The translations under genes were made by a program, and so were the position numbers. Source: an uncultured Candidatus Poseidoniales archaeon (GTDB lineage Archaea > Thermoplasmatota > Poseidoniia > Poseidoniales > Poseidoniaceae). From it: 64,000 nucleotides of DNA. Within the stretch, counting starts at the first letter, position 1. Every line of letters begins with the position of its first letter. The DNA lies in assembly GCA_964014545.1 (NCBI GenBank), contig CAXGZX010000002.1, forward strand, positions 521-64,520. Direction: 5' to 3'. This document shows, piece after piece, positions 11,025 through 56,023 of the stretch. The notes under the pieces were generated by a model. The model saw nothing but the letters and a program-made list of their open reading frames with translations, was not told where the DNA came from and did no database searches.

Positions 11025-11028
11025 GATC

Positions 11029-15863: not shown

Positions 15864-15956
15864 GAAACCCCCAATCAGTGCTTACTTTTGACCTGTTCGT
15901 GTTCATTTATGGGTTATATTGACATGCAATTAGCATTTGGTGGTAATTGAGCCACT

Positions 15957-17065: not shown

Positions 17066-17089
17066 GAAATCGCCTAAAATGTCATTGTT

Positions 17090-17099
17090 AAAAAAAAAA
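17090..17099 (-). terminator. T10 tract between two minus-strand genes (oligo-T terminator and/or A/T-rich promoter element)
   Basis: On the minus strand, TGA CAA TTTTTTTTTT follows the stop of the 17103-17546 gene and ends 24 nt before ATG 17065. Oligo-T tracts act as archaeal terminators, but the spacing also fits a TATA-like element for a near-leaderless transcript. Confidence 0.3.
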
Positions 17100-17102
17100 T
17101 TG

Positions 17103-17546: not shown

Positions 17547-17571
17547 AATTCCACCAACTTTAGTAGCCGTC

Positions 17572-23316: not shown

Positions 23317-23502
23317 GCCTTCACCTGTCACGAAGTATAGCCTTCGCATTTGTCGACTTCTCAACTACACTTATGAGCATGATGGAGTGATGTTCCGACA
23401 TTGATTCAGTTGGTAGAGTAAAAAAATACCGAAAATCATCTCTTTTTCCAATTTGCGAGGGGTTTGTTCAAGACCCTCCCGCGCCAGGAGTAAATTATCA
23501 AC

Positions 23503-24356: not shown

Positions 24357-25436
24357 ATGATACCGAAGTATGAGAGGTTTGTGCCAACTAGCAGACGCTA
24401 CATTTCAGGACCCCGGAGACGGGAAAATGAAGAGGGTGTTAGCGAAGTCCTTGGCGTGATTATGATGCTTGCCATGGTTGTTACAATAATGGGTGGTGTT
24501 TGGGTATTTTTGAATCCATATATTTCTGATTTTGAAGACAACACCAACTGGAATGCAGCCAATGGCATCGCTGACCGCTTAGAAGACAGGATAGATGTTT
24601 CAGCAGATGCGCCAGAGGGGACTGGAATACGTCATAGTTTGCAGATGAGAACAACACTCTTGCAAGGTGTCACTAATCTCGAGCACTGGACAATAAGTGC
24701 TGATTTGACCCCATATGAGGTAGTAAATATCGGGCAATATAGCAACAATTCCTTTGTCATAACCAGTATGAACCAGACAGCATCAAAAGTTACCATCACA
24801 ACAGAAAATAGTCAATTAACTCAACTGATAAGCGCTAACAATGGTTTAGTTGAGCACAATATGCAATTAGGTGAATGGTATATTATCACTGTTTTTAATG
24901 ACAATGATGACCCGATTCACCGTAGCGTCAAATATTCACTATCTGGGCTTCGTTTGATTACCAGTTTAGGCAATGGTGAGCATGAAATATATCTCATCAA
25001 TAATGCTAGAATTGAGCATTTTGCTGATTCAGCTTGGGAAATTAGTCAATTTCCAAGAATTGAATTTGATGAACTCGCAACAGGAGGCATACGCTTGTCG
25101 ATGGTTCTAACCAATGTAGTAGTAAATGGAAGTTTAGGGAATGCCAACCAACTTGGTATCGACATTATTTCAGCTGGCTCAATAAACCCATTTTCTGGAG
25201 AATGTTTCAATATACGATATACGACTACAAACTCTGTATCTCCAGTCATAAGCCCACAATATGATGATTTGTGGTTAAATTCATATTCATTAAACCGTGC
25301 ATCAGGAACACTTGATTCTTATGTCGGTTTATCACCATTTGAAAGAGCAAGTGGAATAGATGGCATCAGTGTAAATTCTTTGGGTCAATCGGTATTTTTT
25401 GACGTAACTATTAATCAGGTGGTTTTGGAAAGATGA
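24357..25436 (+). CDS. Archaeal type IV pilin-like protein (class III signal peptide), 359 aa
   Basis: N terminus RRRENEEGVSEVLGVIMMLAMVVTIMGGVWVF matches the archaeal pilin_N pattern (charged leader, (G/A)VS.V(I/L)G, hydrophobic helix). The remainder is a sequon-rich ectodomain. Confidence 0.6.
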   Translation: MIPKYERFVPTSRRYISGPRRRENEEGVSEVLGVIMMLAMVVTIMGGVWVFLNPYISDFEDNTNWNAANGIADRLEDRIDVSADAPEGTGIRHSLQMRTTLLQGVTNLEHWTISADLTPYEVVNIGQYSNNSFVITSMNQTASKVTITTENSQLTQLISANNGLVEHNMQLGEWYIITVFNDNDDPIHRSVKYSLSGLRLITSLGNGEHEIYLINNARIEHFADSAWEISQFPRIEFDELATGGIRLSMVLTNVVVNGSLGNANQLGIDIISAGSINPFSGECFNIRYTTTNSVSPVISPQYDDLWLNSYSLNRASGTLDSYVGLSPFERASGIDGISVNSLGQSVFFDVTINQVVLER

Positions 25437-36451: not shown

Positions 36452-39400
36452 TCAGAATCTATTTGTTCCCTTGTTACGGGCAACCTTGGTTCCACCATAT
36501 CCTACAAGTAATGTAAGAACAATAATTACCACCATGAACCAAGATGATGTACCTTCAGCTTGGTCAAGAATTGTTTCTTCTTGGTAATCAAATGGTTCGA
36601 TTGAATCCTCGACATATTCTAGGTCGTCATCTGAAGTTACTTCAACACTAATTGCAAATCGGTTAAATTTAGACGATGATGGATCAACATCAAATGTTGC
36701 ATTTACCGTCTGTCCGGCAGGGATTGAAATATTCAATGATTCTAATGTCTTGATTACTTCGGTACCAGCATCATTGGTCAAGTCAACAGCAACAAGCACA
36801 TTGGTGGCAGTACGGTAACCAGAATTAGTAATCGGCACTATGACTTGCCCTGTTTCACTCTCATACACCTTGGTTAACTCTTGAGAAAGAGTTTCATCAA
36901 CGGATAGAGAAATTCTCGCTGAAACGATTTCAACTACCACTGTTTCAGAAGTCAAGCCATCTTCACTAGTAATAGTAACTGTAGCTTCTATTTCTCCAGA
37001 GGTAAAGTCTTCTGGTGCAAAGATCGAAAATTGTTGAGTTCTTTGGTCATCCTTAGAGATAATCAAATTAGTTGATGGAGGTGTTATTGTCCAGCCTTCC
37101 AATAAATTATCTGCTATCTCAATTGCATAGGTGTCATCACCATTACCGGAATTTTCAATTGTCATAGAAAAGGTTCCAGTGCCACCAGGTGAAACACCAG
37201 TCTGTTCAACGATATTTGATAATTCGAAGCCATAGAATTGAGGAACATTAACAATGAATTCAACATTACTAGATTCGCCTTGTTCACTACTTACATCAAT
37301 TGATAACTTGTGTCCATCATCTAGACTGATTGATTCACTCATATTTGGCAGCAGTACTCTTGCTTGCAAAATCGTAGTGTTGTCAATCGAATCGGTAGAA
37401 GCATTGAACACTGCATCTCCTACTCCGAGGTCAATTTGAATAGAGTCAACCCAATCAGTGCCGTTGTAGAATTCTATTGACCAAAGTTGTGAATCTTGTG
37501 AGGAAGCAACAGTACCTGAAACCTCAAGCAGATCACTTCTTTCAGTACCAAGATAATCAACTTGTACATCAAACTCTATGTTTTTGTATGACTCATCATC
37601 AGTCTGTGCATTTAGTACAGAGGTTTCAATATAAGTTACATTCCTTAGCGTATCCTCTAGTATTGTTATTTGTGTATCTGAATTAATCTTTCTAGTATAT
37701 TCTAGAACAAGTTCTGTGATACCTTGCTCAATAGAACTTAACCCAGTAGTCGAATAGTTCATTTCCAAACTTTGATGATGTTGATTTGTGGTGAATTCAG
37801 AGGTTATTCTTGCATCCCCAATAGGCAATAATATTTTGGCTTCTCCATCTGCATCAAAGGTTAAATCCCATTTTGCACCAACAAAGACATCTACAACCAT
37901 AACAACTGGAGAGTTTGTGATTATATCTTCACCAGTTGCAAAACCATTGTCTCCAGCATGATATTGATTCAATTCTATATCAGTCCATAGGGTATTTATT
38001 TCTAACCATCCGCCAGATTTCATTTCTAGAGTTATTTCGCCGCCATCAAACACATTAGCATCTAAGTATCCAATAGCAATTCCTCCACCATTTTCGTTGG
38101 TATTTTGGCTTTCAACAACTACGATCCAATTTCCTGGGGTCAATGTAGTGTCCCAAGATAACTCACTATTTTCATATGTACCAGTTAGAGAGATCGCAGA
38201 TAATTGGTTATCTGTTTCAGGGTACAAGGTTATCGATGAACCGTCTAGTTGTAATTCAGCATCAGGCATATTTGTGGTAACCAATCCAGATACGGCAACA
38301 CTGCTGGCAGTGATTTGATGAGACTCTACTATTGCTTCATCTTCTACGATTAGATTAGAGCTGTTAGTGCTGTTGTAATAGGTTGTAACATATCCAGATT
38401 TCTCCATGGATACATTAAGTTCAGTTCTTATCGGGACAAATGTGGACCACAAGCCATTAACGTCTGTGGCTACAGTTTCATTGATTGTTTCATCAGCACT
38501 AGTAATCACAACACTAACATTTTCAACATATTCGTTTGGAGTTGCAGAATTATCTAGATTAATATCCCAGTAAACTCTACCACCAATTTGCACACTTACA
38601 TCAGCATATATTGATTCTAAGTGTAATTCGTTGTCAATAATATTTTCAGATAATATTTGTTGGTCATCTTGTATTATCCATTGTCGGTCATCAGAAATTT
38701 GCTCCAATACCAAAGAATAATTACCAGGCATTAACATGTCATAAACATAACCAGTTGAGTTAGATGGTTGTAATGTTATGTTGCCAAACCCATCGTTACT
38801 AACAGCAGTGACCCTAGCATCAGCAATTGGGTTATCTGTAAGGTTCTCTGTTAGATTGAAGCTTACTTCCATAGCTGGAACTAAATTAAGTTCCATGTTT
38901 ACCCTATTAACGCTAGAAGAGTCAATCATTAGAGGAGCCCTTAGAAGGTAAGTTTCATTCTCAACAACCTTTGGTGCAACAATAATTACCCAATCACCTG
39001 CTGGTACGTAGCCGGCAAAGGTTCCATTTTCTTGGGTAACTAAACTCCTCCATGCATTATCATTTTCGTTGTACAAGAGGAATTCAAGGTTTTCCGCTCC
39101 AACATCATTTTGCAGTAATTCACCAGAGACCAACCATTCGTTTGAAAACGTGATGTTGTAATTGGTAACTGAATCTTCTCTGAAGTCCACGAAAATTTGT
39201 GTTGTTTGGAAAAATTGGTTAAAATCAGAGGAGTAATCATCACTATCGTAGTCAGTAATTGACAGTAAATACGATCCTGGCCTAACGCTTACTTTGTAAT
39301 CCCCATTTTCGATGACTTGATTTGTGCTGTTAATATAGTAAGTATCTTGAGTGAATATGGTTGGTATTAGCGAGAAATTACTGAATACTGATAGTCCATC

Positions 39401-42400
39401 CTCACATGTATCATTGGCAGATACACAAACAGATACTGTGATATCGACTAATTGCGGATTAGCGACTAGTTCAAATGTAGTTGAGACACCATTATCAGAA
39501 ATGTTTGCCCCAGTTATGCTAGTAAAGTTGAATTCATCGTCAACAAATATATCATAATTGTCATTTGCCACATTGAACACAAAACTTCCGTCGTCTTCTG
39601 AAGGTATTGTCCATTCAAATCCAGACGAGTCTTTAGCGACTACAACAGGATTGTAGCCATCATAGAACTCTGCGTTCCATTGAGTTTTGTTATCATAAGT
39701 AAACAAGGCACCTTGGACAGTTGTTGTTTCCTTGAGATATTGATTAGACAAATCATAATCTGTCACATTTTCTGGTGAGAAATCAATACCAAGTCCATGA
39801 GTAAGTGTTGTCGAGTAGGCAATTAATTGATATTCTCTGTCACCCGGAACTAGCAGGGAAAAGTTGCCATCGTTATCTGTTGAGACAGAATAGCTAAACT
39901 CTTCGCTTTGTATCTTGAACGCAAGGTTTTGTGCAATTACTGAATTATCAATCCGATCAGTAGAACTCCATGTTTCATTAAATTCTGAGGTATAAGCCCT
40001 GAGATTTCCAGTCAATGTGGTTGCTATTGAAAACGGTGCATCTAGTGTTAAATTATCTTCACTGACGGCAAATGTAGTAAATATGACATATGATTCTGAG
40101 TTTTCATCAGTTAACTCATAATTACCTGGGATGAGTTCTAAGCTTACTACTCCATTATCGTCGGTGGTATATTGCTGACTGAAGAAAATCTCACTTGAAG
40201 ATATAGTAATATTTCTATTGGATAGATTCAACAATTCTTCCCCGTCCCCATCTATTGGAGAAACTAACTGTATGTCTACATCAAACATTTCAGGAATAAT
40301 ACTGATTGGCGAAATCACTCCAGCATCTGTTGTAACAGTTACAACATCTTGAATTTCGTTGTATCCATCACCGTCCATATCTATTCTAAACGAATATGCA
40401 CCTGGATGTAATGGGCCGAAGTAATATCCACCTGTTTCATTGGACTTGATTTCAATCTCGGAAGCATTCTCTTCGTTGACATTTTCGAAGAATATCGATA
40501 AATCAGTAATTGGGCTTCCAGTTGAATCTGTCACATTTCCTGCGATTAATGATCCTGGCATGTTCAGAGTTACACCGAAGGAAGGATCAATTCCCACAGA
40601 TACAGTGTCGGGTAATTCTACCTCACTGCCGTCATCAAACATTACTAAGGCTTGATATTCTCCTGGCACTATTCCTGTTTGGTAGAATGAACCTGGGCTA
40701 ACCATTTCTCCTGAGAAATGTCCAGAGCCGACGAATCTTCCTGTTCCATTGAATATTCCAGTCCCTTCAAAGAAACCAATGCCTTCGAAAGAAGCACCAT
40801 TGTGTTCCTGAATTAGGATTGTTTCTCCAGCAGAGGTAAATCTTCCATTAGCATTCACAAGACCATCAATTAGGTAAACAGGTAAATCTCCAGTATTATC
40901 AATCAAACATACTGTTTCATTTTCAGGCATAGTGGTCACCGATGAATCGTTAGCGTCAACATCACAATTGACGTTAAATCCATCATTAAGGTCAATCCAA
41001 GATGCTGTCAATTCCCCAGTACCGTTCCATGAACCGTTTGCGATGTAGGTTCTTCCGTCGCCGATAGATCTAGTAAATGTACCAACAAAGTTGACTACTG
41101 ATGCCAAACCATTTGATTCAAATGTTCCATTTTCGTCAAATACGGCTTCACCAGTACCCTGTAAAATTCTAGTTTCTTCTGTAGAGAATGAACCGTTAGT
41201 AGTGACCAGTAGCATATCATCAGAGGCTTGGTGAACGTTAACCAGTTTGATAGTTGTGTCAACAATTGCATCACCATCAAATGATTCATCACCAGTCCAA
41301 GTTAGTTGGCCGGATATACCGCTGCTGTCAACTTGAATGTTCATAGAATCGGTAAATTCAGCAGTTCTGTTAGCCTGCTCACCTGTGACATTCATTACTG
41401 AATCGCCTAACCAAGTCATGTTTGCTACGTTACCAAGTACAGCAGTAACAGGGAATATAGTTCTTGCAGTTTCGTCTGGTAGACAAACATTGTATTGAGA
41501 ATTGTATGACTCATATGAATCACAAAGCATGTCGCCCCAATTTTGCATGTAACTTCCGTCACTAATTGATGTCCTTGCAGGTTCAGCATCAAAGGTCCCC
41601 ACAAAAGCACTGACTCTTATCTTACCCGCTGGTGCGGTAAAAGACCAATCACCATTTGCATCGGCATCGGTATAACCGATTGGAATCCAATATGTATCCT
41701 CGTCCAAGTCTTCAGCACCTTCGCCAGAGTAAGCATCTCTCTCGATTAGTAGCCTGACACCAGGAACTGGGTTACCATCATCACTCATAGTCACTTGACC
41801 ACTGATTTCGGCGCCAGAGTAATATTTCATTATCTTAACATAGGTGTTAGCTCTGAAGGTTGTATCATTTGCATCTTCACTGTACCAGTTAGATATGACA
41901 AAGTGATTCATCATAGCGCCAGGCATAGGCAATGCATTTTGTAAGATTGACCCCGGAGTTCCACCGATACCGAAGTGCTGAGCCGGCTGTGGGTTCGAGA
42001 ATTCTGTATTCACACCAAGCGAAGATGCACCATACCCAACGTAAGTCCTTGCCAGCATAGTGTCAAAGAATGCAGGGTTGTGGTCTACTCTGACATCTTG
42101 AACCAATAGCGGATCGATTTCCAATCCGGCTTGTTGATCAAGGAAGTCATTTACCATCGCTTCATCTACTTCTTCTCTTGTCATCTCAAAGCTTCTGTCA
42201 CCTCTAGAGGTTTCATAGGTCTCATCCATGAAGGTTGAAATATCTTGGCCGCTCAAAATAGTTGGTGCACCGAAAATACCCATAGGTTGTTCGCCGTTAT
42301 ATGCTGCATCAGCAGTATAACGACCGGCTCTAGGGTACAGTCTGTTGTCGATGGCAAAGTATCTAATTTCGTGATCTCTTTCAACCATATCACCTGGAAG

Positions 42401-45400
42401 ACCTTCATAATCTTGAACTTTGTAATAACCTTCCATGCCAATTAAGTCATCATATAGATTTACTATCTCTGGTTCTGTCATAATATCGTTTAGCAATTGA
42501 ACGGTTAATGCTAATCTTGTATTTGCTCGGTGAATGTGAGTTGATACTGAATCAAATTCATCTCGCAAGTCGTTGGTGTACCAGTAATCTCCAAAGATGT
42601 AATGTGTGGTTTTGTAACTGGATTCTTGGCCAGATCTCACGTTGCTATTGAATGTGGAGTTTGCATCTGAAAAATCACTGTAATCTCCATCGACGCATGA
42701 AGTAGAAACTTCTGGGTCACAATCAACTTTTTCACCGTCTTGATATAGTCGGTAGTAAAGAGTACTCGTATCAGCAATCCCGTCAACTCTATGATAACCA
42801 CTAGCCATTACATTTTCACTATTCGCTTGAATCTGTGATGCCTCGTTGGTTTGAATTACGGTAAAAGCATAATCATCAATTATACTACGCATTTTATCGT
42901 TGTCACCCTCTTCTTGGATGGTTTCAAACAATTCATATTGTTCAGAATCCATATGTCTTTCAACTATGTTTGAAAACCCTGAAGTTAGTTCATAGTCATC
43001 GGTGTTAAGTTGATTATACCGCAAGTCTCCGGTGGCTAGTTGCCATGTAAACATGGAGATTAAGTCTGCTTGATTTCTAGCTAACAGCATGTTACCCGAT
43101 GCAGGAATACCTGACTGGAAGTTGTCAGAAACAGATGGATGTTGACCGGTATCAAGGGCTTGGAAACCATAATCCCACCATGAGACAAATGCAGGTCTTT
43201 GAGAATAATCCATTTGAGCATCTTGCTGGGTCATCCAGTCATAGGCACTATTCCAGCCATAGTCATTAAATCCAGAACCAAATGATCCAAGATACTTGTT
43301 ACCTGAATATGCACTGCTATCCAAAACCGAGAATCCTGCCAATTCCCATCTTAGAGCGTCAGGAATGAGATTGTAAATAGTTTCATCGAGATCATCTTCA
43401 CTATCATCTGTTCCGGGTATTGCAGAATCTAATCCGTAAGTAAATTGTTGTCCACCTACTAGCAAAATGATCAACAATATGGCAGAGAAAGAAGGAGTCC
43501 TCCATACTGCTTTTCTAGCACCAGCAATTCTGTCTGCTGGAGTCCTGATTCCGAATTTTTTCCACGCCTTTACCAAACCACGGAAATTAGCTTTATCCCA
43601 TAGTGCGACTATTCCCCATGCACCAAGTACTGCTACTGCAGGTGTTGCGTTAAACATGAATCTTGCAGCAGTCCAAGACATGTAGGTAGCGGTAAAAATC
43701 CATATTCCAAAGAACAGGTGTGATTGATTTTTATTTCTAAATGTCGACCAAAGTGCATAGAATCCCATGGCTAGTGCAAGTACCAATACAATAGGTCCCA
43801 ACTGGGCAAATAACTGACCACGTGCTGGTGGATTAGCCTCAGCAACTGTTCCAAAAATCTTGGTCTTACTGAAATATCCACTTCCTGTGAACAGAACATC
43901 CCATGCATTGCTAAATTCTAGTTGCTTCAAAACAAACAATATGGCAAAGAATACGGTTGCTGCCACAAAGAGGGTCCCCAAAACAAGTAACCATGGCTTG
44001 TCTCTAAATCCGGTGGTAACGTATGCAATCGCTAATGTGAATCCTAGGACGAACAAGAATGGTTGTAATCCAGTGCCATCTAAAACAAGGTTCATTTGCG
44101 GGTGTGCATAGAATGGTAATGCCATTAGAAGATTGGCAAATAACATTGCTAAGAACAACGAATTGAGTGAGGTGGAATCTTTTCTGCGGAACATGTTGAG
44201 GGCTACCTGAGCGAAGTATGCCAAGAATAGTATGCTTGGACCGACAACGAAACCTTTCCAAGCCAACGAGGCGATACCAAAGGAAACACCAGCAAGTACG
44301 GCAAATGCCATAGCAGGCCTACGCTCTCTTGCTATTACTCCATAAGAGTTCAAAATCGATGTGATTCTTGGCGAAGAGGTTCTAGTTAAACGATCATTGC
44401 TAGAATACTTGATGGCTTTGAACCAAAACATGAATCCCATTGAAATGAATAGCATTACAAAGGCATCGTGGTCTGCAAGCGCCCAGGTGGAGTGAGAAAC
44501 GTGAGCTGGCATGAAGGCAATTAACCAAGCAGCCACTACTCCGGTAGACTTGCCGAAGTTGTCCTTGGCAATGGTAGCAATTGGGAATATGGTAAGTGCA
44601 CCGTATATTGCTGGTAGTCCTAGTATAGCATACCAAACTGCGTCATTACCAAGCATTGGTTCCAGAATCATTGCCAATAGGGCAATTGACCAGGTAAACA
44701 ACGGTGGACGTGGATTGACACCACCTAGTGGATAAGCACGATCTGCGTCAAAAATCAGGTGTGCATTATTTGCTAGAATATAATCAACAACACGCTTCAT
44801 GTACCATGGGTCAGACCCTCCAGTCATATCCCAGTCACCAGTTCCAACAGCGTTCATTGACGGAACAATGTACCATTGAATTCTGATTACCAGTCCGAAA
44901 AAGAAAGCCATACCGATCATCAAACTAGACCAGTGAGCATCCCAGAATTTTCTAGCGCCACTGACTTCATGATCATCTAAGTTTGCCCAGCCACCGTATT
45001 TCTCGTGTGTTGAAATCATGTATATTCCAACACAAATAAAGAACGTGAAACCAAGCCAAATTAGTGAGCCCCAAGTACCTTCAAGTTGCTCAGACTCCCA
45101 AATTCCTGCTTCGTACCATGCAGACACTAAGTATAGTGCCCACATTGAACCAATAAACATTGAACGAGTATACCACTTTTCTGCTGCCATTCCAGCAACG
45201 ACCATCGCCACCATACCGGTAAAGAAAGCACCCCAGAAGCCAAAATGACCGTGATAGCCGTCTGCGTCTGTGACGCCCAGTTTATCTGCCATAGAGACCG
45301 CATCAAAATGATACAGGCTACCGACATGTGCTAGAATCCAAACTGCTGCAGCGATTTGCAATGGTAGAGTTGATTTGTTGTAAGATCCTTCATGTTGTGC

Positions 45401-46030
45401 AATCTTAGAGAACCAACCATCTTCTCCAGCAGGGTTTAATGTGCCTCTAGAGAGTACTGCTGCGAGTAAACCAAGGACAACAAATATTGTCAAATAACTG
45501 AAAAATACGTAGCCTAATGCTTGCCTTTGGAGGTTTAGTGTGTCTTTTAACGAACCATCTGCAAAGGTATACAGAGTATCTAAATCGCTGTTGTATGAAC
45601 CAACAGCAACCATACCGACATTAATTCCCATAACAGCAAATGTAAGCATTGTAGCAAATTCATGACGTCCTCTTGAATCAAACAAAAATACACCAAAGGC
45701 AACTACTAGAAATTGTAGAGCCACAAATGCACCTTGGTCAGTCAAGTGAGTAATAGCTTGATGACCAACCATTGCTGCACCCAATGTTGCTAGAGAAAGA
45801 ACCGAGGAAGAGAGTTTTACGGCACCATTATCTCTGACAACTCTTGGGGTGATACCCAAGGTAGCCGCTACTGCAACAAGCAGCATCGGTGTCATGTTTT
45901 CTAGGTTTAGGTCGAAGTCAAATCCAGCGACCATAATTGCTGCGATTGCCAGCATTACTGCAAGGGGCGCAATTAGCCACCCAAGCATTGGTGCTGGAGA
46001 GTTTCGCAATGTTGTTGTTTTCTCTTCCAT
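36452..46030 (-). CDS. aglB: Giant (3192 aa) dolichyl-phosphooligosaccharide-protein glycotransferase AglB/STT3 fused to an N-terminal polytopic extension and a huge extracellular repeat region
   Basis: Catalytic WWDYG (PAFVSWWDYGFQ, nt 43166-43180) followed by SDNFQSG. EL1 motif GGSDPWYMKRVVDYIL..DADRAYPLGGVNPRPPLFTW. More than 20 hydrophobic helices in the first ~950 aa. About 2200 aa of beta-sandwich-like repeats follow (PGEYQALV, PGAYSFRI, PGNYELT, PGSYLLSI, PGNYSLVL), ending in a C-terminal TM helix WFMVVIIVLTLLVGYGG. GAGGG-A8-ATG start context. Confidence 0.85.
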   Translation of the reverse strand: MEEKTTTLRNSPAPMLGWLIAPLAVMLAIAAIMVAGFDFDLNLENMTPMLLVAVAATLGITPRVVRDNGAVKLSSSVLSLATLGAAMVGHQAITHLTDQGAFVALQFLVVAFGVFLFDSRGRHEFATMLTFAVMGINVGMVAVGSYNSDLDTLYTFADGSLKDTLNLQRQALGYVFFSYLTIFVVLGLLAAVLSRGTLNPAGEDGWFSKIAQHEGSYNKSTLPLQIAAAVWILAHVGSLYHFDAVSMADKLGVTDADGYHGHFGFWGAFFTGMVAMVVAGMAAEKWYTRSMFIGSMWALYLVSAWYEAGIWESEQLEGTWGSLIWLGFTFFICVGIYMISTHEKYGGWANLDDHEVSGARKFWDAHWSSLMIGMAFFFGLVIRIQWYIVPSMNAVGTGDWDMTGGSDPWYMKRVVDYILANNAHLIFDADRAYPLGGVNPRPPLFTWSIALLAMILEPMLGNDAVWYAILGLPAIYGALTIFPIATIAKDNFGKSTGVVAAWLIAFMPAHVSHSTWALADHDAFVMLFISMGFMFWFKAIKYSSNDRLTRTSSPRITSILNSYGVIARERRPAMAFAVLAGVSFGIASLAWKGFVVGPSILFLAYFAQVALNMFRRKDSTSLNSLFLAMLFANLLMALPFYAHPQMNLVLDGTGLQPFLFVLGFTLAIAYVTTGFRDKPWLLVLGTLFVAATVFFAILFVLKQLEFSNAWDVLFTGSGYFSKTKIFGTVAEANPPARGQLFAQLGPIVLVLALAMGFYALWSTFRNKNQSHLFFGIWIFTATYMSWTAARFMFNATPAVAVLGAWGIVALWDKANFRGLVKAWKKFGIRTPADRIAGARKAVWRTPSFSAILLIILLVGGQQFTYGLDSAIPGTDDSEDDLDETIYNLIPDALRWELAGFSVLDSSAYSGNKYLGSFGSGFNDYGWNSAYDWMTQQDAQMDYSQRPAFVSWWDYGFQALDTGQHPSVSDNFQSGIPASGNMLLARNQADLISMFTWQLATGDLRYNQLNTDDYELTSGFSNIVERHMDSEQYELFETIQEEGDNDKMRSIIDDYAFTVIQTNEASQIQANSENVMASGYHRVDGIADTSTLYYRLYQDGEKVDCDPEVSTSCVDGDYSDFSDANSTFNSNVRSGQESSYKTTHYIFGDYWYTNDLRDEFDSVSTHIHRANTRLALTVQLLNDIMTEPEIVNLYDDLIGMEGYYKVQDYEGLPGDMVERDHEIRYFAIDNRLYPRAGRYTADAAYNGEQPMGIFGAPTILSGQDISTFMDETYETSRGDRSFEMTREEVDEAMVNDFLDQQAGLEIDPLLVQDVRVDHNPAFFDTMLARTYVGYGASSLGVNTEFSNPQPAQHFGIGGTPGSILQNALPMPGAMMNHFVISNWYSEDANDTTFRANTYVKIMKYYSGAEISGQVTMSDDGNPVPGVRLLIERDAYSGEGAEDLDEDTYWIPIGYTDADANGDWSFTAPAGKIRVSAFVGTFDAEPARTSISDGSYMQNWGDMLCDSYESYNSQYNVCLPDETARTIFPVTAVLGNVANMTWLGDSVMNVTGEQANRTAEFTDSMNIQVDSSGISGQLTWTGDESFDGDAIVDTTIKLVNVHQASDDMLLVTTNGSFSTEETRILQGTGEAVFDENGTFESNGLASVVNFVGTFTRSIGDGRTYIANGSWNGTGELTASWIDLNDGFNVNCDVDANDSSVTTMPENETVCLIDNTGDLPVYLIDGLVNANGRFTSAGETILIQEHNGASFEGIGFFEGTGIFNGTGRFVGSGHFSGEMVSPGSFYQTGIVPGEYQALVMFDDGSEVELPDTVSVGIDPSFGVTLNMPGSLIAGNVTDSTGSPITDLSIFFENVNEENASEIEIKSNETGGYYFGPLHPGAYSFRIDMDGDGYNEIQDVVTVTTDAGVISPISIIPEMFDVDIQLVSPIDGDGEELLNLSNRNITISSSEIFFSQQYTTDDNGVVSLELIPGNYELTDENSESYVIFTTFAVSEDNLTLDAPFSIATTLTGNLRAYTSEFNETWSSTDRIDNSVIAQNLAFKIQSEEFSYSVSTDNDGNFSLLVPGDREYQLIAYSTTLTHGLGIDFSPENVTDYDLSNQYLKETTTVQGALFTYDNKTQWNAEFYDGYNPVVVAKDSSGFEWTIPSEDDGSFVFNVANDNYDIFVDDEFNFTSITGANISDNGVSTTFELVANPQLVDITVSVCVSANDTCEDGLSVFSNFSLIPTIFTQDTYYINSTNQVIENGDYKVSVRPGSYLLSITDYDSDDYSSDFNQFFQTTQIFVDFREDSVTNYNITFSNEWLVSGELLQNDVGAENLEFLLYNENDNAWRSLVTQENGTFAGYVPAGDWVIIVAPKVVENETYLLRAPLMIDSSSVNRVNMELNLVPAMEVSFNLTENLTDNPIADARVTAVSNDGFGNITLQPSNSTGYVYDMLMPGNYSLVLEQISDDRQWIIQDDQQILSENIIDNELHLESIYADVSVQIGGRVYWDINLDNSATPNEYVENVSVVITSADETINETVATDVNGLWSTFVPIRTELNVSMEKSGYVTTYYNSTNSSNLIVEDEAIVESHQITASSVAVSGLVTTNMPDAELQLDGSSITLYPETDNQLSAISLTGTYENSELSWDTTLTPGNWIVVVESQNTNENGGGIAIGYLDANVFDGGEITLEMKSGGWLEINTLWTDIELNQYHAGDNGFATGEDIITNSPVVMVVDVFVGAKWDLTFDADGEAKILLPIGDARITSEFTTNQHHQSLEMNYSTTGLSSIEQGITELVLEYTRKINSDTQITILEDTLRNVTYIETSVLNAQTDDESYKNIEFDVQVDYLGTERSDLLEVSGTVASSQDSQLWSIEFYNGTDWVDSIQIDLGVGDAVFNASTDSIDNTTILQARVLLPNMSESISLDDGHKLSIDVSSEQGESSNVEFIVNVPQFYGFELSNIVEQTGVSPGGTGTFSMTIENSGNGDDTYAIEIADNLLEGWTITPPSTNLIISKDDQRTQQFSIFAPEDFTSGEIEATVTITSEDGLTSETVVVEIVSARISLSVDETLSQELTKVYESETGQVIVPITNSGYRTATNVLVAVDLTNDAGTEVIKTLESLNISIPAGQTVNATFDVDPSSSKFNRFAISVEVTSDDDLEYVEDSIEPFDYQEETILDQAEGTSSWFMVVIIVLTLLVGYGGTKVARNKGTNRF

Positions 46031-48283: not shown

Positions 48284-50014
48284 ATGCGTAGAGCAACAAT
48301 TATTGTAGCATTCTTTATGATTTCAACAATCATATTCATGCCGACTGGACTTTCACAGCCTCAAACAGACGGTTCAACACAAGTAATAACGTCTTCAGAA
48401 TTGTGGGATACAAATTCTGAATTTAACGGTGATGTTACTGTTACTGAAGGAGCAACACTGACTATCAGTGGGGACATTAGTATTGCCACTGGAGCCTCTA
48501 TTGTGGTGGATGAAGGCGCAAACTTAGTGCTTACTGGAGGATTATCAGCCTTGGAAATGTCCTCGGGTGTGTTCATGGAAGTGTATGATACAACAATGCT
48601 TCAACCAAACTTTACCGGACTGGTTGATTCAGGAACACTGCGCATCAATGTGGCTAAAGATTACTTCAGTACAATGGATGTTAATGTAACAGTTGGAGAC
48701 AGCACAATCGCCTGGACTGGTGAAGATTACCTAGACTACAGTGTCGATTTTAATGACCAAGCAATTAATGTTAGTTTCCAAGGATTCTGGCAATTCCCGG
48801 TATGGATTGACTCGATTCAAGCATTTGATAGCAATGGAGTAATCTATACTCTAGACGCTGATGAGTGGCAACATAACAACGGCGTTTTGAAAACCGAAGA
48901 AGGTGAGGCATCCTACAGCATAACAATCAACGGAAACTTTGACTCAAATTCTGGTTCTATTGAAGGGGCTGAGTTGAGTTGCATTGGTGTATGTACAATT
49001 GATAATAGCACATTGAACTGGAGCAGCCCAATTAATGTTGAAGACACCGGTACACTCTCAATAATGACTAGCATAATCAATGGAAGTCGAACTTATGAAG
49101 ACATCATTGTTCATGACACTGGCACAATCAATTATGATACTTCGACAATGACTGGCACAGGCGGCCCAACTGATAGTTGGATTCGATTACTGTCACAGAG
49201 AGTCATTTCCACAAATTTGAAAGATGCTCCAGCTAGTGTCCATTTTGAAGGTCTTGGATACCTAGGCAGCAGCGGCGATTTAACATTAGATCAAAATGGT
49301 AATGTCGAATTGTCACAGCACAATAATCCAGATCTCAGTAAGTATCTGCGTATGACAGAATGGCTAGATAGTTCAGGGGAAATGAATCAGGAGGATGCAA
49401 TGGTTCTGATTACCTTAAGCGGCGGCAATAATGCTTGGAGCGGTGATTACTCAACCACTCTTGACCCTGCACCTATGACCCCATCATTCACTGCCAACAT
49501 TCCGCTACCATACGTAGTGATTGATTCTGTTGTTCCCGAGGATAACAAAGGAACTGCTAACAAAGGAATTGGAGTAATGGTAACCGCTTCTAATACAGGA
49601 GATGTCGAAGTATCTACCAATATACAATGTTTTGAGGGTGATGAATTAGCCGACGTAACAACCCTATATGTGACCTTAGCACCGGGTGAATCAAAAGATA
49701 TCCCGACTACATGGTATGCAAACTCTTCCGGAGCAAAATCCTTGAATTGTAAACCCTTGATTCTGCCAAAATTTAACACCTTATCTGAAGACCTTGGCCA
49801 GTCTGCTGGCACTGAGTCTGAACTAGTTTCCTTCAAGGACGCTGAAGATTCAGAAGATATGCCAATCATCCTGTACGGTGCAATCGTAATTGTCATAGTT
49901 ATTGGTACAATCATATTCTCTAGAATCTCTGCTAAGAAACTCACAGAAACTGAGGAAGAGAAAGATTACTCCATCGACGAGGATGACGATGAAGATACTG
50001 GAGTCATTGAATAA
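48284..50014 (+). CDS. Surface protein: beta-helix-like N-terminal region + CARDB-like domain + C-terminal TM anchor with acidic tail
   Basis: Signal MRRATIIVAFFMISTIIFMPTGLSQP. GDVTVTEGATLTISGDISIATGASIVVDEGANLVLTGG. CARDB-like VMVTASNTGDVEVSTNIQCFEG...LAPGESKDIPTTW. TM helix IILYGAIVIVIVIGTIIF followed by DEDDDEDTGVIE. Confidence 0.5.
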   Translation: MRRATIIVAFFMISTIIFMPTGLSQPQTDGSTQVITSSELWDTNSEFNGDVTVTEGATLTISGDISIATGASIVVDEGANLVLTGGLSALEMSSGVFMEVYDTTMLQPNFTGLVDSGTLRINVAKDYFSTMDVNVTVGDSTIAWTGEDYLDYSVDFNDQAINVSFQGFWQFPVWIDSIQAFDSNGVIYTLDADEWQHNNGVLKTEEGEASYSITINGNFDSNSGSIEGAELSCIGVCTIDNSTLNWSSPINVEDTGTLSIMTSIINGSRTYEDIIVHDTGTINYDTSTMTGTGGPTDSWIRLLSQRVISTNLKDAPASVHFEGLGYLGSSGDLTLDQNGNVELSQHNNPDLSKYLRMTEWLDSSGEMNQEDAMVLITLSGGNNAWSGDYSTTLDPAPMTPSFTANIPLPYVVIDSVVPEDNKGTANKGIGVMVTASNTGDVEVSTNIQCFEGDELADVTTLYVTLAPGESKDIPTTWYANSSGAKSLNCKPLILPKFNTLSEDLGQSAGTESELVSFKDAEDSEDMPIILYGAIVIVIVIGTIIFSRISAKKLTETEEEKDYSIDEDDDEDTGVIE

Positions 50015-54161: not shown

Positions 54162-54262
54162 TCCATCCCCACAACACGCTCGCTTTACTGTTTAAAAAGG
54201 CGCTGCAAAGATAGGCAACTATCGTTAAACATGACTAAAAGACTGATTTGCTAGCACCAAGT

Positions 54263-56023
54263 ATGGCGGATGTTCTCAAGAGCATTATGAATAAAATTAC
54301 TGATGATGACCCAGCAACTAGAGGTCAACAACTTTGGGTGATGTTTACTCTAGCGATTTTCTTAGTCGCAATTTTGAATTATTACGCCATGGTTAGAGAA
54401 CCTGACATTGTAGATATGGATGAGTTGATTGAATACAAGAATGAAGTGGTCAAAGTCGAAGGAGAAATAATTTCATGGCGGGAAGACCCATGGAACTCAG
54501 GGGATTGGGAAACCCACGTCATTGTAACAGACGGTACTGCCGTGGTTGAGGCTCGTTGGAGCCGTCCTGCAGAAATACCACCAATTGGCACAAATGTGGT
54601 AATCACTGGCAAAGTTATGGAATATGAAGGTAATATTTACATGACTGCGGTAGGCTCAGGAGCAATGGACTGGGATGAAGATGACTTACCAGACATCGTC
54701 CAGTTATCTCTACTTGATGTCGCACTGGACCCAGAAAAATACGAAGGTGAAGTGATTTCCCTCACTGGATACATCGGAGAATCAATACCACCAGATGCAA
54801 TGTTTGTATCTGCTGATTTAAGGGACCATCCTTCTTACGGCAATGCTGAACATCAGGTCAAGTTAAGCATCAGGTCTAAGGTTGGAAGTTGGATTGAAAC
54901 CTCTTCCAAAGTACAAGTTACTGGAACAATATCATATAATCAACGAGACCTGAATTGGGTTATGTCTGTACAAGGTCCAGAAATCCTTGTTGACAGAAAC
55001 CACCCTGTTGACATTATTCGATTGAATTGGGGAGAAGAGGCCACATGGAGTTATCAGTCTGGCAACCTTGTCAATATTGCTGGCTATGTAATGGTTGGAG
55101 AAGAATGGAGTTTACGAGGCCCAGGTGGAGTAACAATTTGCCTTAAACCAAGTGGCATTGACCTTGCAGCTAATGAAAACGCCTCACTCAACAATGAATT
55201 TCGAGATATTCAAGGCAGGTTGATGTGGTCTGAAGCCGATTCTAGTTGGTGTATTGATGCAAGCGAAGGCACGCCCACTGGGAATTTGATAAATTCAGAA
55301 GATGTCGTTGATTTGTTATCATTACTTTCTGGAGATCCAATAAGATTGATTGACCAGCCTAACACTAGATACACTGTCAATGCATTTGTCAGATATGCCA
55401 TTGAGCCATCAGTTGAAGATGTCAGTGGCTGGCTAGTAGACAAGATTGATTATCGAGGACAGACAAAGATTTACGCAACTTTCCCAGCCCAAACTTCAAC
55501 TCAATGGATTGAGGCTGGTCAAGCAATTACTGCCAATGTATCAGTTACCTGGGATGACACCAATATGGCGATACGGCTAATGATCCACGATTATCAACTT
55601 GGCGACGTACCTGAGGCCAAAAATTTACTTTGGGATGAAGGTGCATCACAATGGGGATATTCTAGAAGCCAAATGGTAAATCTACCAGGCATTGCGGTTC
55701 AAGATGATGACGGTCAATGGTGGTTGCAAAGAGATGGCTCGAATCAAAGTATTAGACTATCACCTAATAACAACACTATCATCGGCACAGATAGTTATCA
55801 TAGCGGTTATTCACACGTTTGGAACGGTCGAATGATGGAAGTTGCAGACCCAGAAATGATTGCAACGGTTTACCATTTGATAAATGCCGACGTAGTTGAT
55901 ACTGATGGTGACGGTTTATCTGATAATTTAGAATCTCTGTACGGCACCAACCCGTACAATGTTGATACTGATGGCGATGGTGAAAACGATCGTGATGATA
56001 ACGACACATACCCCGACTATTGA
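54263..56023 (+). CDS. N-terminally anchored surface protein with multiple OB-fold-like modules and C-terminal TSP3 repeats
   Basis: TM anchor QLWVMFTLAIFLVAILNYYAMV. OB-like strand patterns (EVVKVEGEIISW..THVIVTDGTAVVEARW..IGTNVVITGKVMEYEGNIYM, GEVISLTGYIGES..VKLSIRS..KVQVTGTISY). C-terminal DTDGDGLSDNLE and DTDGDGENDRDD. ATG 54263 is preferred over TTG 54248. Confidence 0.5.
   Translation: MADVLKSIMNKITDDDPATRGQQLWVMFTLAIFLVAILNYYAMVREPDIVDMDELIEYKNEVVKVEGEIISWREDPWNSGDWETHVIVTDGTAVVEARWSRPAEIPPIGTNVVITGKVMEYEGNIYMTAVGSGAMDWDEDDLPDIVQLSLLDVALDPEKYEGEVISLTGYIGESIPPDAMFVSADLRDHPSYGNAEHQVKLSIRSKVGSWIETSSKVQVTGTISYNQRDLNWVMSVQGPEILVDRNHPVDIIRLNWGEEATWSYQSGNLVNIAGYVMVGEEWSLRGPGGVTICLKPSGIDLAANENASLNNEFRDIQGRLMWSEADSSWCIDASEGTPTGNLINSEDVVDLLSLLSGDPIRLIDQPNTRYTVNAFVRYAIEPSVEDVSGWLVDKIDYRGQTKIYATFPAQTSTQWIEAGQAITANVSVTWDDTNMAIRLMIHDYQLGDVPEAKNLLWDEGASQWGYSRSQMVNLPGIAVQDDDGQWWLQRDGSNQSIRLSPNNNTIIGTDSYHSGYSHVWNGRMMEVADPEMIATVYHLINADVVDTDGDGLSDNLESLYGTNPYNVDTDGDGENDRDDNDTYPDY

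What the first reader, a model, noticed from the sequence alone, without database searches (positions are those of the whole stretch)
36452..46030. 3192-aa AglB/STT3: oligosaccharyltransferase core embedded in a giant doubly anchored envelope protein
Seen in sequence: this is one uninterrupted 9579-nt ORF. Residues ~365-950 form a recognisable STT3 core. It has TM1, then the first external loop GGSDPWYMKRVVDYIL..FDADRAYPLGGVNPRPPLFTW (Asp codon 44810-44812), then many TM helices and the catalytic WWDYG (nt 43166-43180). This is followed by SDNFQSG, which parallels the eukaryotic DNNTWN segment. About 2200 further residues follow. They are built of repeated beta-sandwich-like units with recurring PG-x-Y-x-(L/F) strands (PGEYQALV, PGAYSFRI, PGNYELT, PGSYLLSI, PGNYSLVL, PGNWIVVV), which look carboxypeptidase-regulatory or Cna-B-like by pattern. 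Next comes a CARDB/NEW3-like terminal module (GTGTFSMTIENSGNGDDTYAIEI) and a second membrane anchor at the extreme C terminus. Established knowledge: characterised archaeal AglB proteins are roughly 600-1050 aa. Inference: the OST catalytic unit is part of, or tethered beneath, a giant surface scaffold that may have structural or adhesive roles in addition to N-glycosylation.
Basis: partly seen in the sequence, partly recalled or inferred. Interest (0 to 1): 0.75.

Follow-up and report, generated by a model that had tools for sequence, protein, structure and literature searches.

The report
Giant doubly anchored archaeal N-glycosylation enzyme
This is a real, intact 3192-residue version of the archaeal N-glycosylation enzyme AglB from a Marine Group II archaeon. 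Its catalytic core is fused to a huge, sequon-rich, membrane-tethered surface domain, an architecture shared by the whole class Thermoplasmata, sitting unremarked in databases since 2000, and never functionally explained.

Summary
Window 36452..46030 (-) is one 3192-codon ORF. It has an STT3/AglB core with invariant catalytic residues (D407, D520-H-D522, WWDYG 951-955). About 2200 extracellular residues follow, with 9-12 diverged transthyretin/CnaB-like beta-sandwiches and two CARDB/DUF11-like modules. It ends in a C-terminal TM helix with a basic tail.

It is not a mis-join. More than 120 protein clusters at 46-99% identity cover it end to end at 3109-3227 aa. They come from Ca. Poseidoniales (MGII), including a long-read assembly.

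MGII proteins carry an extra ~10-helix N-terminal membrane extension with no detectable relatives. The giant architecture is also not unique. About 200 further full-length proteins of 2040-2775 aa from Thermoplasmata share the same collinear layout and C-terminal anchor. These include cultured Thermoplasma volcanium (2076 aa, finished genome), Cuniculiplasma, Oxyplasma and Caldiplasma.

The ectodomain carries about twice the expected N-X-S/T sequons in every MGII ortholog checked (about twofold on average in the Thermoplasmata group). Its length is strikingly fixed.

Best reading: an active oligosaccharyltransferase whose own ectodomain is a heavily N-glycosylated, fixed-geometry envelope or glycocalyx element. 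The envelope role is inferred, not shown. The family is catalogued but unexplained: a new variant of a known kind.

The parts
36452..46030 (-). Complete aglB ORF, 3192 aa plus stop
   Evidence: full-length orthologs at 46-99% identity, 3109-3227 aa
44945..46030 (-). N-terminal membrane extension, residues 1-362. About 10 predicted TM helices. Found only in the MGII group, with no detectable relatives.
   Evidence: Hydropathy. AF2 helices 14-341. No Pfam hit. Only fragments of the same gene found. Not a duplicate of the core. Thermoplasmata relatives start their core at residue ~20-100.
43421..44944 (-). STT3/AglB GT-C transmembrane core, residues 363-870 (13 TM helices expected)
   Evidence: Pfam PF02516; TIGR04154; phmmer against PDB 3WAJ/5GMY; Foldseek top 15 hits are all AglB/STT3 at probability 1.0
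44810..44812 (-). Codon of D407 in external loop 1 (GGSDPWY). Aligns with the Asp of GGNDPWY in A. fulgidus AglB-L.
   Evidence: invariant in 40 orthologs
44465..44473 (-). D520-H521-D522, the second acidic (DXD-type) motif. Aligns with N-D-H-H of AfAglB-L.
   Evidence: invariant
43166..43180 (-). WWDYG catalytic motif, residues 951-955
   Evidence: WWDYG in all but one of the ~140 top-ranked homologs that contain the region; the exception has WWDFG
41816..43420 (-). Extracellular catalytic-proximal region, residues 871-1405. Contains WWDYG, a helical plus beta insertion of ~180 aa (about 1030-1214, MGII only), and a block at 1201-1400 that is as conserved as the core.
   Evidence: Conservation profile; AF2; collinear blastp to Thermoplasmata proteins at 1214-1483
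42320..42349 (-). Candidate Ser/Thr-pocket (DK/MI-equivalent) segment D1228-N-R-L1231-Y-P...R1237, within IRYFAIDNRLYPRAGRY
   Evidence: Invariant D1228, R1230, L1231, Y1232, P1233. The same D-x-R-(L/M)-(F/Y)-P is present in 12 of 18 non-MGII homologs inspected. Assignment is inferred, not shown (one search failed to align it).
41540..41815 (-). First transthyretin/CarboxypepD_reg-like beta-sandwich, residues 1406-1497
40691..41539 (-). Gly-rich region, residues 1498-1780, predicted to form very long beta-hairpins (strands of up to about 35 residues). Holds the five invariant sequons N1537, N1547, N1665, N1704 and N1761. No counterpart detected in the Thermoplasmata relatives compared.
   Evidence: AF2 pLDDT 72-89; sequon conservation and blastp gaps
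37751..40690 (-). Array of about 10 tandem, mutually diverged transthyretin/CnaB-like beta-sandwiches, residues 1781-2760
   Evidence: Pfam CarboxypepD_reg/SpaA/SdrD_B; iterated profile; Foldseek matches to the TIE protein, PitA, SpaC, SdrD B-repeats and S-layer proteins
36629..37282 (-). Two terminal CARDB/NEW3/DUF11-like modules, residues 2917-3134. Also a sub-threshold choice-of-anchor-T match at 2917-3030.
36455..36544 (-). C-terminal TM anchor (3165-3183) plus basic cytoplasmic tail ending in invariant Phe, residues 3163-3192
   Evidence: no match to known sorting-signal models
35185..36399 (-). Membrane-anchored S8 subtilase ('halolysin'), 52 nt downstream on the same strand. Adjacent to aglB in all 23 related loci that reach it.
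30663..35063 (-). 1466-aa secreted beta-helix protein with a C-terminal TM anchor; third gene of the conserved cluster

Best explanation
This is the functional oligosaccharyltransferase AglB of a Marine Group II (Ca. Poseidoniales) archaeon, built in the giant format typical of class Thermoplasmata.

Shown: an intact GT-C/STT3 core with all sequence-recognisable catalytic residues, conserved end to end under purifying selection.

Inferred topology: N-terminus inside, about 10 extra TM helices, then 13 core helices. The chain emerges outside at about residue 870 and stays outside for about 2300 residues. It re-enters the membrane through one C-terminal helix, with its basic tail inside. The ectodomain is therefore a loop tethered at both ends.

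Inferred function: the core transfers dolichol-phosphate-linked glycans to N-X-S/T sites on the outer face of the membrane. The ectodomain is an acidic chain of a long beta-ribbon, about 10-12 beta-sandwiches and two CARDB-like modules. It carries about 46 sequons, twice the number expected. It is probably itself a major N-glycan carrier, glycosylated in cis or by neighbouring copies. It would then act as a fixed-size glycocalyx or envelope element, in a lineage where most cultured members have no S-layer.

In MGII it is probably co-transcribed with a membrane subtilase and a beta-helix surface protein.
For: Enzyme identity: Pfam, NCBIfam, PDB sequence matches and Foldseek all point to AglB/STT3. 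D407, D520/H521/D522 and WWDYG are invariant in 40 orthologs spanning 47-96% identity.

Real gene: more than 120 full-length clusters. It occurs in 31 species-level genomes, including a 622-kb long-read contig and the CM001443 MG-II chromosome. Conservation is 0.5-0.85 per 100-aa block with almost no indels. It is transcribed in situ in an MGIIb MAG.

Topology: hydropathy and a positive tail. Nearly every complete relative has the C-terminal TM plus basic tail.

Glycan carrier: 46 sequons versus 25 +/- 4.3 in shuffles, and 0 of 2000 shuffles reach the observed number. The ratio is 1.7-2.9 in all 116 MGII orthologs and averages 2.1 in 198 Thermoplasmata proteins. The neighbouring surface protein is sequon-depleted. 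Twelve sequon columns are conserved in at least 80% of orthologs and five are invariant.

Envelope-type protein: Foldseek matches pilin, adhesin-stalk and S-layer proteins. Nine relatives end in PGF-/Loki-/Heimdall-CTERM-like archaeosortase sorting signals. The net charge of residues 891-3160 is -282. S-layer-deficient Cuniculiplasma and wall-less Thermoplasma carry orthologs.

Fixed geometry: length is 3109-3227 aa across 46-99% identity, and 2045-2161 aa among the 113 full-length (>=97% coverage) Thermoplasmatales-type relatives at 35-47% identity.
Against: There is no protein-level evidence for abundance, glycosylation or surface location. The MGII envelope has never been imaged at this resolution, because the group is uncultured. 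If the ectodomain were only a glycan carrier, one would expect faster turnover of domain number than is seen. The DK/MI Ser/Thr-pocket motif could not be placed by sequence, and the AF2 models are unconfident exactly around the active site. I could not test whether a second, ordinary-size AglB exists in the same genomes; if one does, the giant protein need not be the housekeeping enzyme.
Confidence: 0.55

Rival explanations
1. The ectodomain is an in-cis accessory module of the enzyme rather than an envelope component. It would be a spacer or platform that holds the catalytic site at a set distance from an overlying layer. Alternatively, it would capture unfolded acceptor proteins leaving the Sec channel, playing the part that separate lumenal subunits play in the eukaryotic OST complex.
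For: The block at 1201-1500 is as conserved as the catalytic core and is shared with the Thermoplasmata relatives. Length is strictly conserved. Weak Pfam hits fall on NOMO- and EMC7-type beta-sandwich families of ER-lumenal translocon partners.
Against: The NOMO and EMC7 hits are sub-threshold or generic for the transthyretin-like clan. This reading does not explain the twofold sequon enrichment, or the archaeosortase-type signals in some relatives. Characterised AglBs work as single subunits without such modules (review table).
Confidence: 0.2
2. The ORF encodes a polyprotein. After membrane insertion, the co-encoded membrane subtilase would cut it into an ordinary-size AglB (about 1400 aa) and a separate C-terminally anchored surface glycoprotein (about 1800 aa).
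For: An S8 subtilase with an N-terminal TM helix lies 52 nt downstream, with a GGTGA ribosome-binding-like site. It is adjacent in all 23 loci that reach it and in an MGIIb MAG.
Against: T. volcanium has the giant AglB without an adjacent protease. There is no poorly conserved linker or indel-rich hinge at the core/array junction. No cleavage motif was identified.
Confidence: 0.12
3. The ectodomain is an adhesin that binds particles, algal polysaccharides or other cells.
For: Structural similarity to Gram-positive adhesin and pilin stalks and to ice-binding or large adhesion proteins. CARDB/NEW3 modules occur in glycan-binding contexts. MGII papers argue for particle attachment.
Against: Stalk domains are generic. 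No recognisable ligand-binding head domain was found. Adhesins usually vary in repeat number and sequence, whereas this protein is collinear and length-invariant from marine plankton to acid hot-spring organisms. Both ends are in the membrane, so there is no free tip.
Confidence: 0.08
4. Assembly artefact: a frameshift or chimeric join fuses an ordinary aglB to an unrelated surface-protein gene.
For: One JGI contig calls the gene as three pieces of 365 + 895 + 1908 aa.
Against: That contig also truncates the neighbouring purD, which points to indel errors. Hundreds of independent assemblies give one ORF: short-read, long-read, and the finished T. volcanium genome.
Confidence: 0.01

Closest known systems
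Archaeoglobus fulgidus AglB-L (PDB 3WAJ, 3WAK, 5GMY, 7E9S), the structurally characterised archaeal oligosaccharyltransferase
   Same: Same GT-C fold. The external-loop-1 Asp (GGxDPWY), second acidic motif, WWDYG and the following xxFQxG segment align residue for residue.
   Different: AfAglB-L is 868 aa. The window protein adds about 362 residues of TM helices in front and a ~180-aa insertion after WWDYG. It adds about 1800 further extracellular residues and a second anchor. The variant DK motif of AfAglB-L (E613...K618) has no clear counterpart.
Giant AglBs of Thermoplasmata, e.g. Thermoplasma volcanium GSS1 TVG1271204 (2076 aa), Caldiplasma sukawensis WP_458329147.1 (2093 aa), Cuniculiplasma and Oxyplasma meridianum
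   Same: Collinear architecture: STT3 core, a conserved 'IRYFA(I/V)D.R(L/M)(F/Y)P' block, CarboxypepD_reg array, NEW3/CARDB modules, and a C-terminal TM with basic tail. The same sequon enrichment is seen.
   Different: About 30-38% identity in the core. They have no N-terminal 10-TM extension and lack counterparts of the 1030-1214 and 1498-1780 segments. They are about 400-1100 aa shorter. T. volcanium has no adjacent subtilase. They are database entries only, named 'carboxypeptidase regulatory-like domain-containing protein' or 'GT39 family protein'.
Haloferax volcanii S-layer glycoprotein (in situ structure PDB 7PTP) and Sulfolobus SlaB (8QOX)
   Same: Chains of Ig-like beta-sandwiches on the cell surface. 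They are acidic, heavily N-glycosylated, and anchored at the C-terminus. Both appear among the Foldseek matches. Some giant AglB relatives carry the same class of PGF-CTERM-like signal.
   Different: S-layer proteins have no enzymatic domain and one anchor. Lattice formation is their defining property and is untested here. The MGII C-terminus matches no known sorting-signal model.
CnaB / SdrD B-repeat / pilin stalk arrays of Gram-positive surface proteins (B. anthracis TIE protein 6FWV, PitA 7W6B, SpaC 6M48)
   Same: Best structural matches of residues about 1400-2099 (E 1e-14 to 1e-10). Pfam SdrD_B and SpaA hits.
   Different: Sequence identity is 8-14%. Neither an LPXTG anchor nor isopeptide-bond signatures were examined. 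They are bacterial wall-anchored proteins.
Eukaryotic NOMO (BOS complex), recalled from general knowledge as a rod of about 12 transthyretin-like domains with a C-terminal TM helix in the ER lumen
   Same: A string of the same domain clan ending in a TM anchor and sitting on the glycosylation side of the membrane. Pfam NOMO-family models give weak hits here and are precomputed hits in many orthologs.
   Different: All hits are below the curated cut-offs in this protein. There is no evidence of specific common ancestry. NOMO is not fused to STT3.

Membership tests
STT3/AglB/PglB oligosaccharyltransferases (GT66, GT-C fold) | Multi-span GT-C transmembrane domain of STT3 type | tested here: met
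   PF02516 scores 56 bits against a 24.5-bit cut-off. The top 15 Foldseek hits of the AF2 model are AglB or STT3 at probability 1.0, with target-normalised TM-scores of 0.36-0.50. The model itself is only moderately confident (pLDDT 58.6).
STT3/AglB/PglB oligosaccharyltransferases (GT66, GT-C fold) | Conserved acidic residue in external loop 1 (first DXD-type motif) | tested here: met
   D407 in GGSDPWY aligns with GGNDPWY of AfAglB-L and is invariant.
STT3/AglB/PglB oligosaccharyltransferases (GT66, GT-C fold) | Second DXD/DXH-type metal-binding motif | tested here: met
   D520-H521-D522 aligns with D-H-H of AfAglB-L and is invariant.
STT3/AglB/PglB oligosaccharyltransferases (GT66, GT-C fold) | WWDYG motif in the external domain after the last core TM helix | tested here: met
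   WWDYG at 951-955. It is present in all but one of the ~140 top-ranked homologs that contain the region; the exception has WWDFG.
STT3/AglB/PglB oligosaccharyltransferases (GT66, GT-C fold) | DK (DxxKxxx[MI]), variant DK (E<>Kxxx[MIP]) or MI (MxxIxxx[IVW]) motif on the kinked helix that forms the Ser/Thr pocket (definitions from PMC3703281) | tested here: inconclusive
   Sequence profiles do not reach this region of the PDB AglBs. AF2 pLDDT is below 50 for residues 1205-1268. The candidate is the invariant D1228-x-x-L1231, which is D-x-R-(L/M)-(F/Y)-P in 12 of 18 non-MGII homologs inspected. This is a D-type first residue with a hydrophobic second residue.
STT3/AglB/PglB oligosaccharyltransferases (GT66, GT-C fold) | Transfer of a lipid-linked glycan to Asn of N-X-S/T | not testable with these tools
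   Requires a biochemical assay or genetics.
NCBIfam TIGR04154 (archaeosortase A system-associated STT3 subfamily) | Score above the curated subfamily cut-off | tested here: not met
   174.8 bits against a 450-bit cut-off. This is the best NCBIfam hit, but the protein is not a member of that subfamily.
CarboxypepD_reg / transthyretin-like beta-sandwich domains (PF13620) | Domain match above the gathering score | tested here: met
   80.9 bits against 32.3 for residues 1829-1900. Further units were found by segment scans and an iterated profile. The beta-sandwich structure is predicted at pLDDT 80-90.
CARDB / NEW3 (NPCBM_assoc) modules | Domain match above the gathering score | tested here: inconclusive
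   In the terminal 293-aa segment, NPCBM_assoc scores 27.4 bits against 24.4 (passes) and CARDB 22.4 against 22.7 (just fails). Each gives two stretches.
PGF-CTERM / archaeosortase-sorted surface proteins | C-terminal P-G-F motif, TM helix and basic tail matching TIGR04126 or related models | tested here: not met
   The query C-terminus gives no hit, and none of 126 MGII-group sequences has P[GSA]F in the last 45 residues. Nine of 199 Thermoplasmata relatives do, with Loki- or Heimdall-CTERM scores at or above cut-off.
Archaeal S-layer proteins | Self-assembly into a 2-D lattice; among the most abundant cell proteins | not testable with these tools
   There is only fold-level resemblance to SlaB and the Haloferax S-layer glycoprotein.

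The most novel reading that the evidence does not exclude
In Thermoplasmata, including the very abundant marine MGII archaea, the oligosaccharyltransferase and its principal substrate are one polypeptide. The doubly tethered, about 45-60-sequon ectodomain of AglB would be the main protein of the glycocalyx that replaces an S-layer. Its invariant length would set the thickness of the cell envelope. The MGII-specific 10-TM extension and the co-encoded subtilase and beta-helix protein would form a dedicated envelope-assembly module.
Probability: 0.25. Interest if true: 0.75.

Novelty: new variant of a known kind. Interest (0 to 1): 0.5.

Why it matters
AglB is treated as a 600-1050-residue single-subunit enzyme in the reviews of archaeal N-glycosylation that I read. 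An entire class of archaea instead makes it 2-3 times larger, tethers it at both ends, and loads it with glycosylation sites. This includes the most abundant planktonic archaea of the surface ocean and the classic wall-less Thermoplasma.

If the ectodomain is a structural glycocalyx element, it would answer a long-standing question: what covers cells that lack an S-layer. It would also be a rare case of an enzyme fused to its own major substrate.

The question is directly testable, because orthologs exist in cultivable Thermoplasma, Cuniculiplasma and Oxyplasma. There is a practical point as well. These proteins are frequently mis-named in databases ('carboxypeptidase regulatory-like', 'GT39 family', 'hypothetical'), and one published study filed the gene under lipid metabolism.

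Tried and rejected
1. AF2 of residues 1-1200 with a 40-sequence alignment of close orthologs gave only pLDDT 58.6. External loop 1 and residues 815-984 are unmodelled, so no active-site geometry could be read.

2. Placing the DK/MI motif by sequence failed. phmmer and a 40-sequence profile against the PDB align only up to about residue 990.

3. A single-domain profile does not find the other beta-sandwiches, so the array is not a recent repeat expansion. Nine rounds of iteration over 328 relatives were needed.

4. The N-terminal extension has no Pfam hit and no PDB sequence or fold hit. It has no similarity to the STT3 core or to itself. A 5.8-billion-protein search returned only fragments of the same gene. 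An apparently free-standing 365-aa copy is a frameshifted assembly.

The window's other large ORFs contain no STT3 domain. The stored part of one MGIIb gene table lists a single K07151 gene, but the file is truncated.

6. Literature: seven full-text searches and ten papers gave no mention of the unusual size. Vinogradov et al. 2012 on T. acidophilum glycoproteins is not held. The AglB surveys by Magidovich & Eichler 2009 and Nikolayev et al. 2020 were not looked up or read.

7. The sigma-70 promoter and terminator scan was not used, because the organism is an archaeon. Only a TATA-like ATTAAAA about 65 nt upstream was seen by eye.
Full report
OBSERVATION. The window holds a single open reading frame at 36452..46030 on the minus strand, 3192 codons from ATG to stop. 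With this base composition a stop-free run of that length has a probability of about 1e-90. The neighbouring genes, purD and CDP-archaeol synthase, mark the organism as an archaeon.

IS THE ORF REAL? A search of 5.8 billion proteins returned more than 120 clusters at 46-99% identity. Nearly all cover 98-100% of the query at 3109-3227 aa. A scan of one genome per species found 31 loci, all in Ca. Poseidoniales (Marine Group II) MAGs and mostly Poseidoniaceae. They include the 2.06-Mb MG-II chromosome CM001443.1 and a 622-kb long-read contig. In a 40-sequence full-length alignment the mean column identity is 61% and indels are almost absent. Per 100-residue block the conservation is:
- 0.62-0.78 in residues 1-400;
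- about 0.8 in the STT3 core;
- 0.8 again at 1201-1500;
- 0.5-0.6 from 1900 to the end.

The one contig that splits the gene (365 + 895 + 1908 aa) also truncates purD, so indel errors are the likely cause. A mis-join is excluded.

ENZYME CORE. Pfam STT3 covers 406-802 and NCBIfam archaeo_STT3 covers 371-1110; the latter is below its subfamily cut-off. phmmer against the PDB aligns residues 374-664 with A. fulgidus AglB-L. In that alignment GGSDPWY pairs with GGNDPWY and ADHD with NDHH. WWDYG...SDNFQSG pairs with WWDYG...ANPFQAG. D407, D520, H521, D522 and W951-G955 are invariant. The AF2 model of residues 1-1200 is only moderately confident (pLDDT 58.6). Even so, its 15 best Foldseek matches are all AglB or eukaryotic STT3 at probability 1.0.

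The Ser/Thr-pocket motif (DK, variant DK or MI; definitions in PMC3703281) could not be placed. The best candidate is the invariant D1228-N-R-L1231-Y-P. It recurs as D-x-R-(L/M)-(F/Y)-P in 12 of 18 non-MGII homologs inspected.

Residues 1-362 contain nine to ten hydrophobic helices ahead of STT3 TM1. They have no Pfam, PDB or fold match. They are not a duplicate of the core. A dedicated database search found only fragments of the same gene. Ten helices would keep the N-terminus and the start of STT3 TM1 on the cytoplasmic side; this is inference.

ECTODOMAIN. The AF2 model of residues 900-2099 (pLDDT 70.2) predicts four parts:
- a helical plus beta insertion at about 987-1197 (pLDDT 72-91 for most of the segment);
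- a first beta-sandwich at about 1406-1477;
- a Gly-rich segment at 1620-1770, folded into unusually long beta-hairpins with strands of up to about 35 residues (pLDDT 72-89);
- tandem beta-sandwiches from about 1780.

Foldseek places these with CnaB, pilin and SdrD-B stalk arrays and with the S-layer proteins SlaB and Haloferax csg. Pfam scans by segment find CarboxypepD_reg, SpaA and SdrD_B units, and two CARDB/NEW3/DUF11-like modules at 2917-3134. An iterated profile over 328 relatives identifies units at 1406-1497, 1826-1903, 1935-1995, 2028-2076, 2130-2185, 2226-2267, 2301-2375, 2388-2446 and 2499-2557. Three weaker ones also appear. The units are old and mutually diverged.

The protein ends in a hydrophobic helix at 3165-3183 and the tail KVARNKGTNRF, with an invariant terminal Phe. 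This matches no known sorting-signal model.

THE ARCHITECTURE IS NOT UNIQUE. An exhaustive HMMER search with the core alone (residues 366-1000) against 1.84 billion representatives gave two tiers:
- the MGII tier, 3146-3228 aa, with the core starting at residue about 340-400;
- more than 100 representatives at 28-38% identity and 2040-2775 aa, with the core starting at residue about 20-100.

Nearly every complete member of the second tier also ends in a TM helix plus basic tail. These proteins show the same Pfam order. They are collinear with the query over the core, the 1214-1483 block and, in one of the four, the distal array. They are named 'Thermoplasmata archaeon'.

A search seeded with the Caldiplasma sukawensis protein found orthologs of about 2050-2120 aa in cultured Thermoplasmatales. 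These are Thermoplasma volcanium GSS1 (TVG1271204, 2076 aa), Thermoplasma spp., Cuniculiplasma, Oxyplasma meridianum and Acidiplasma. The T. volcanium gene sits intact in the finished genome BA000011.4.

An MGIIb MAG (SIMO Bin 19-2) has a 9538-nt gene labelled aglB, with the same purD - aglB - halolysin - unknown - TPR order. It has measurable transcripts and a log2 fold change of 2.05 when that genus is active. None of the papers I could search remarks on the size.

CLUES TO FUNCTION.
(i) Sequons. The query ectodomain (1401-3160) has 46 N-X-S/T sites against 25 +/- 4.3 in shuffles (z = 4.9; 0 of 2000 shuffles reach 46). The catalytic-proximal part, 891-1400, has 2 against 4.5. The observed/expected ratio is 1.7-2.9 in all 116 MGII orthologs and averages 2.1 in 198 Thermoplasmata proteins. 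The neighbouring 1466-aa surface protein is depleted, at 11 against 19. Twelve sequon positions are conserved in at least 80% of 40 orthologs and five are invariant.
(ii) The external part is very acidic, with a net charge of -282 over residues 891-3160.
(iii) Length is held within about 2% in the MGII group (nearly all complete proteins at 3146-3228 aa) and within about 3% in the Thermoplasmatales group, despite 35-50% sequence divergence.
(iv) Nine of 199 Thermoplasmata relatives end in PGF-, Loki- or Heimdall-CTERM-like signals, the archaeosortase tags typical of surface glycoproteins.
(v) Cultured Thermoplasmatales other than Picrophilus lack an S-layer, and Cuniculiplasma was shown by electron microscopy to be S-layer-deficient (PMC5155288). 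They nevertheless carry this protein.

CONTEXT. In MGII the order purD - aglB - membrane S8 subtilase - 1466-aa beta-helix protein with a C-terminal TM - STAND/TPR regulator is conserved in every related locus that extends far enough, 18-26 loci per gene. The subtilase start lies 52 nt after the aglB stop and is preceded by GGTGAGGA. This suggests co-transcription (inference). T. volcanium lacks the protease neighbour. Instead it has a 259-aa CARDB protein that overlaps the aglB stop.

INTERPRETATION. What is shown: a genuine, conserved, transcribed AglB with intact catalytic motifs and a giant external domain tethered at both ends, shared across Thermoplasmata.

What is inferred: the protein is catalytically active, and its ectodomain is a heavily N-glycosylated, fixed-geometry envelope or glycocalyx element (confidence 0.55).

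Rivals are an in-cis accessory or spacer module (0.2), a polyprotein cut by the subtilase (0.12), an adhesin (0.08) and an artefact (0.01). The claim of exceptional size is right only relative to characterised enzymes.

VERDICT. A real feature and a new variant of a known kind. It is catalogued in databases since the T. volcanium genome but, as far as I could search, undescribed and unexplained. Interest 0.5.

Noticed in passing
window 30663-36399 (-), with L002-L031: Downstream of aglB there is a conserved same-strand cluster: a membrane S8 subtilase, then a 1466-aa signal-peptide beta-helix protein with a C-terminal TM and a Gln/Pro-rich cytoplasmic tail. A STAND ATPase/TPR protein with an N-terminal HTH follows at 28126-30654. 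The order is kept in MGIIa and MGIIb.
   Followed up: partly
window 40691-41539 (-), residues 1498-1780: A Gly-rich segment (GTGEAVFDENGTFESNG..., GIGFFEGTGIFNGTGRFVGSGHFSG) is predicted with pLDDT 72-89 to form four beta-strands of about 16-35 residues each. If real, that is a ribbon of about 10 nm. It holds all five invariant sequons and has no detected counterpart in the Thermoplasmata relatives compared.
   Followed up: partly
P0145, P0154, P0155, P0158, P0180, P0182, P0211, P0217, P0242 (C-termini): A minority of the 2200-2700-aa Thermoplasmata AglBs end in P-G-F/P-S-F plus a TM helix and an Arg-rich tail. Of the five tested, three score at or above the curated cut-offs of the Loki-CTERM or Heimdall-CTERM models. 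This implies archaeosortase processing of an oligosaccharyltransferase.
   Followed up: partly
window 36455-36475 (-), alignment A1 last columns: The extreme C-terminus is conserved after the anchor. MGIIa-type proteins end in ...R-F and more distant MGII-group proteins in ...P-F, with an invariant terminal Phe. This could be an unrecognised sorting or interaction signal.
   Followed up: no
window 57554-62533 (+): A 1659-aa secreted protein combines five Lamin Tail Domains (E 3e-69) with two PLD-like phosphodiesterase domains (E 2e-34). It may be a surface nuclease or phospholipase.
   Followed up: no
window 17572-23364 (-): A 1930-aa ORF (TTG start) with an N-terminal hydrophobic segment has no Pfam match at all. 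The related loci do not extend far enough to test conservation.
   Followed up: no
window 24357-27658 (+): Two adjacent genes (359 and 741 aa) have archaeal type IV pilin-like N-termini (Pilin_N/DUF7289, sub-threshold). The 741-aa gene and the following 156-aa gene are conserved next to the cluster in 18 loci.
   Followed up: partly
L034 (JGI Ga0494229_00094, 695 kb), 9409-19560: In this long contig aglB is called as three genes (365, 895 and 1908 aa), and purD is reduced to its C-domain. The likely cause is uncorrected indel errors. Such calls create spurious 'stand-alone' N-extension proteins in databases.
   Followed up: yes
L032 (T. volcanium BA000011.4), 16228-17007: A 259-aa CARDB-like gene overlaps the stop codon of the 2076-aa aglB by 4 nt. 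It may be a small partner protein in the Thermoplasma version.
   Followed up: no
PMC9723583 main text versus its supplement: The 9.5-kb MGIIb aglB is grouped in the text with 'lipid metabolism' genes (eggNOG category I). Orthologs in NCBI are variously named GT39 family, carboxypeptidase regulatory-like, or hypothetical. This is systematic mis-annotation of the family.
   Followed up: yes
window 54248-56023 (+) and 48284-50014 (+): Two further predicted surface proteins lie nearby. One has a bacterial TSP3 (thrombospondin type 3) repeat. The other (576 aa, no Pfam hit here) has a signal peptide, a C-terminal TM and an acidic tail, and its counterpart in L034 carries CARDB. The region is rich in envelope genes.
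   Followed up: no
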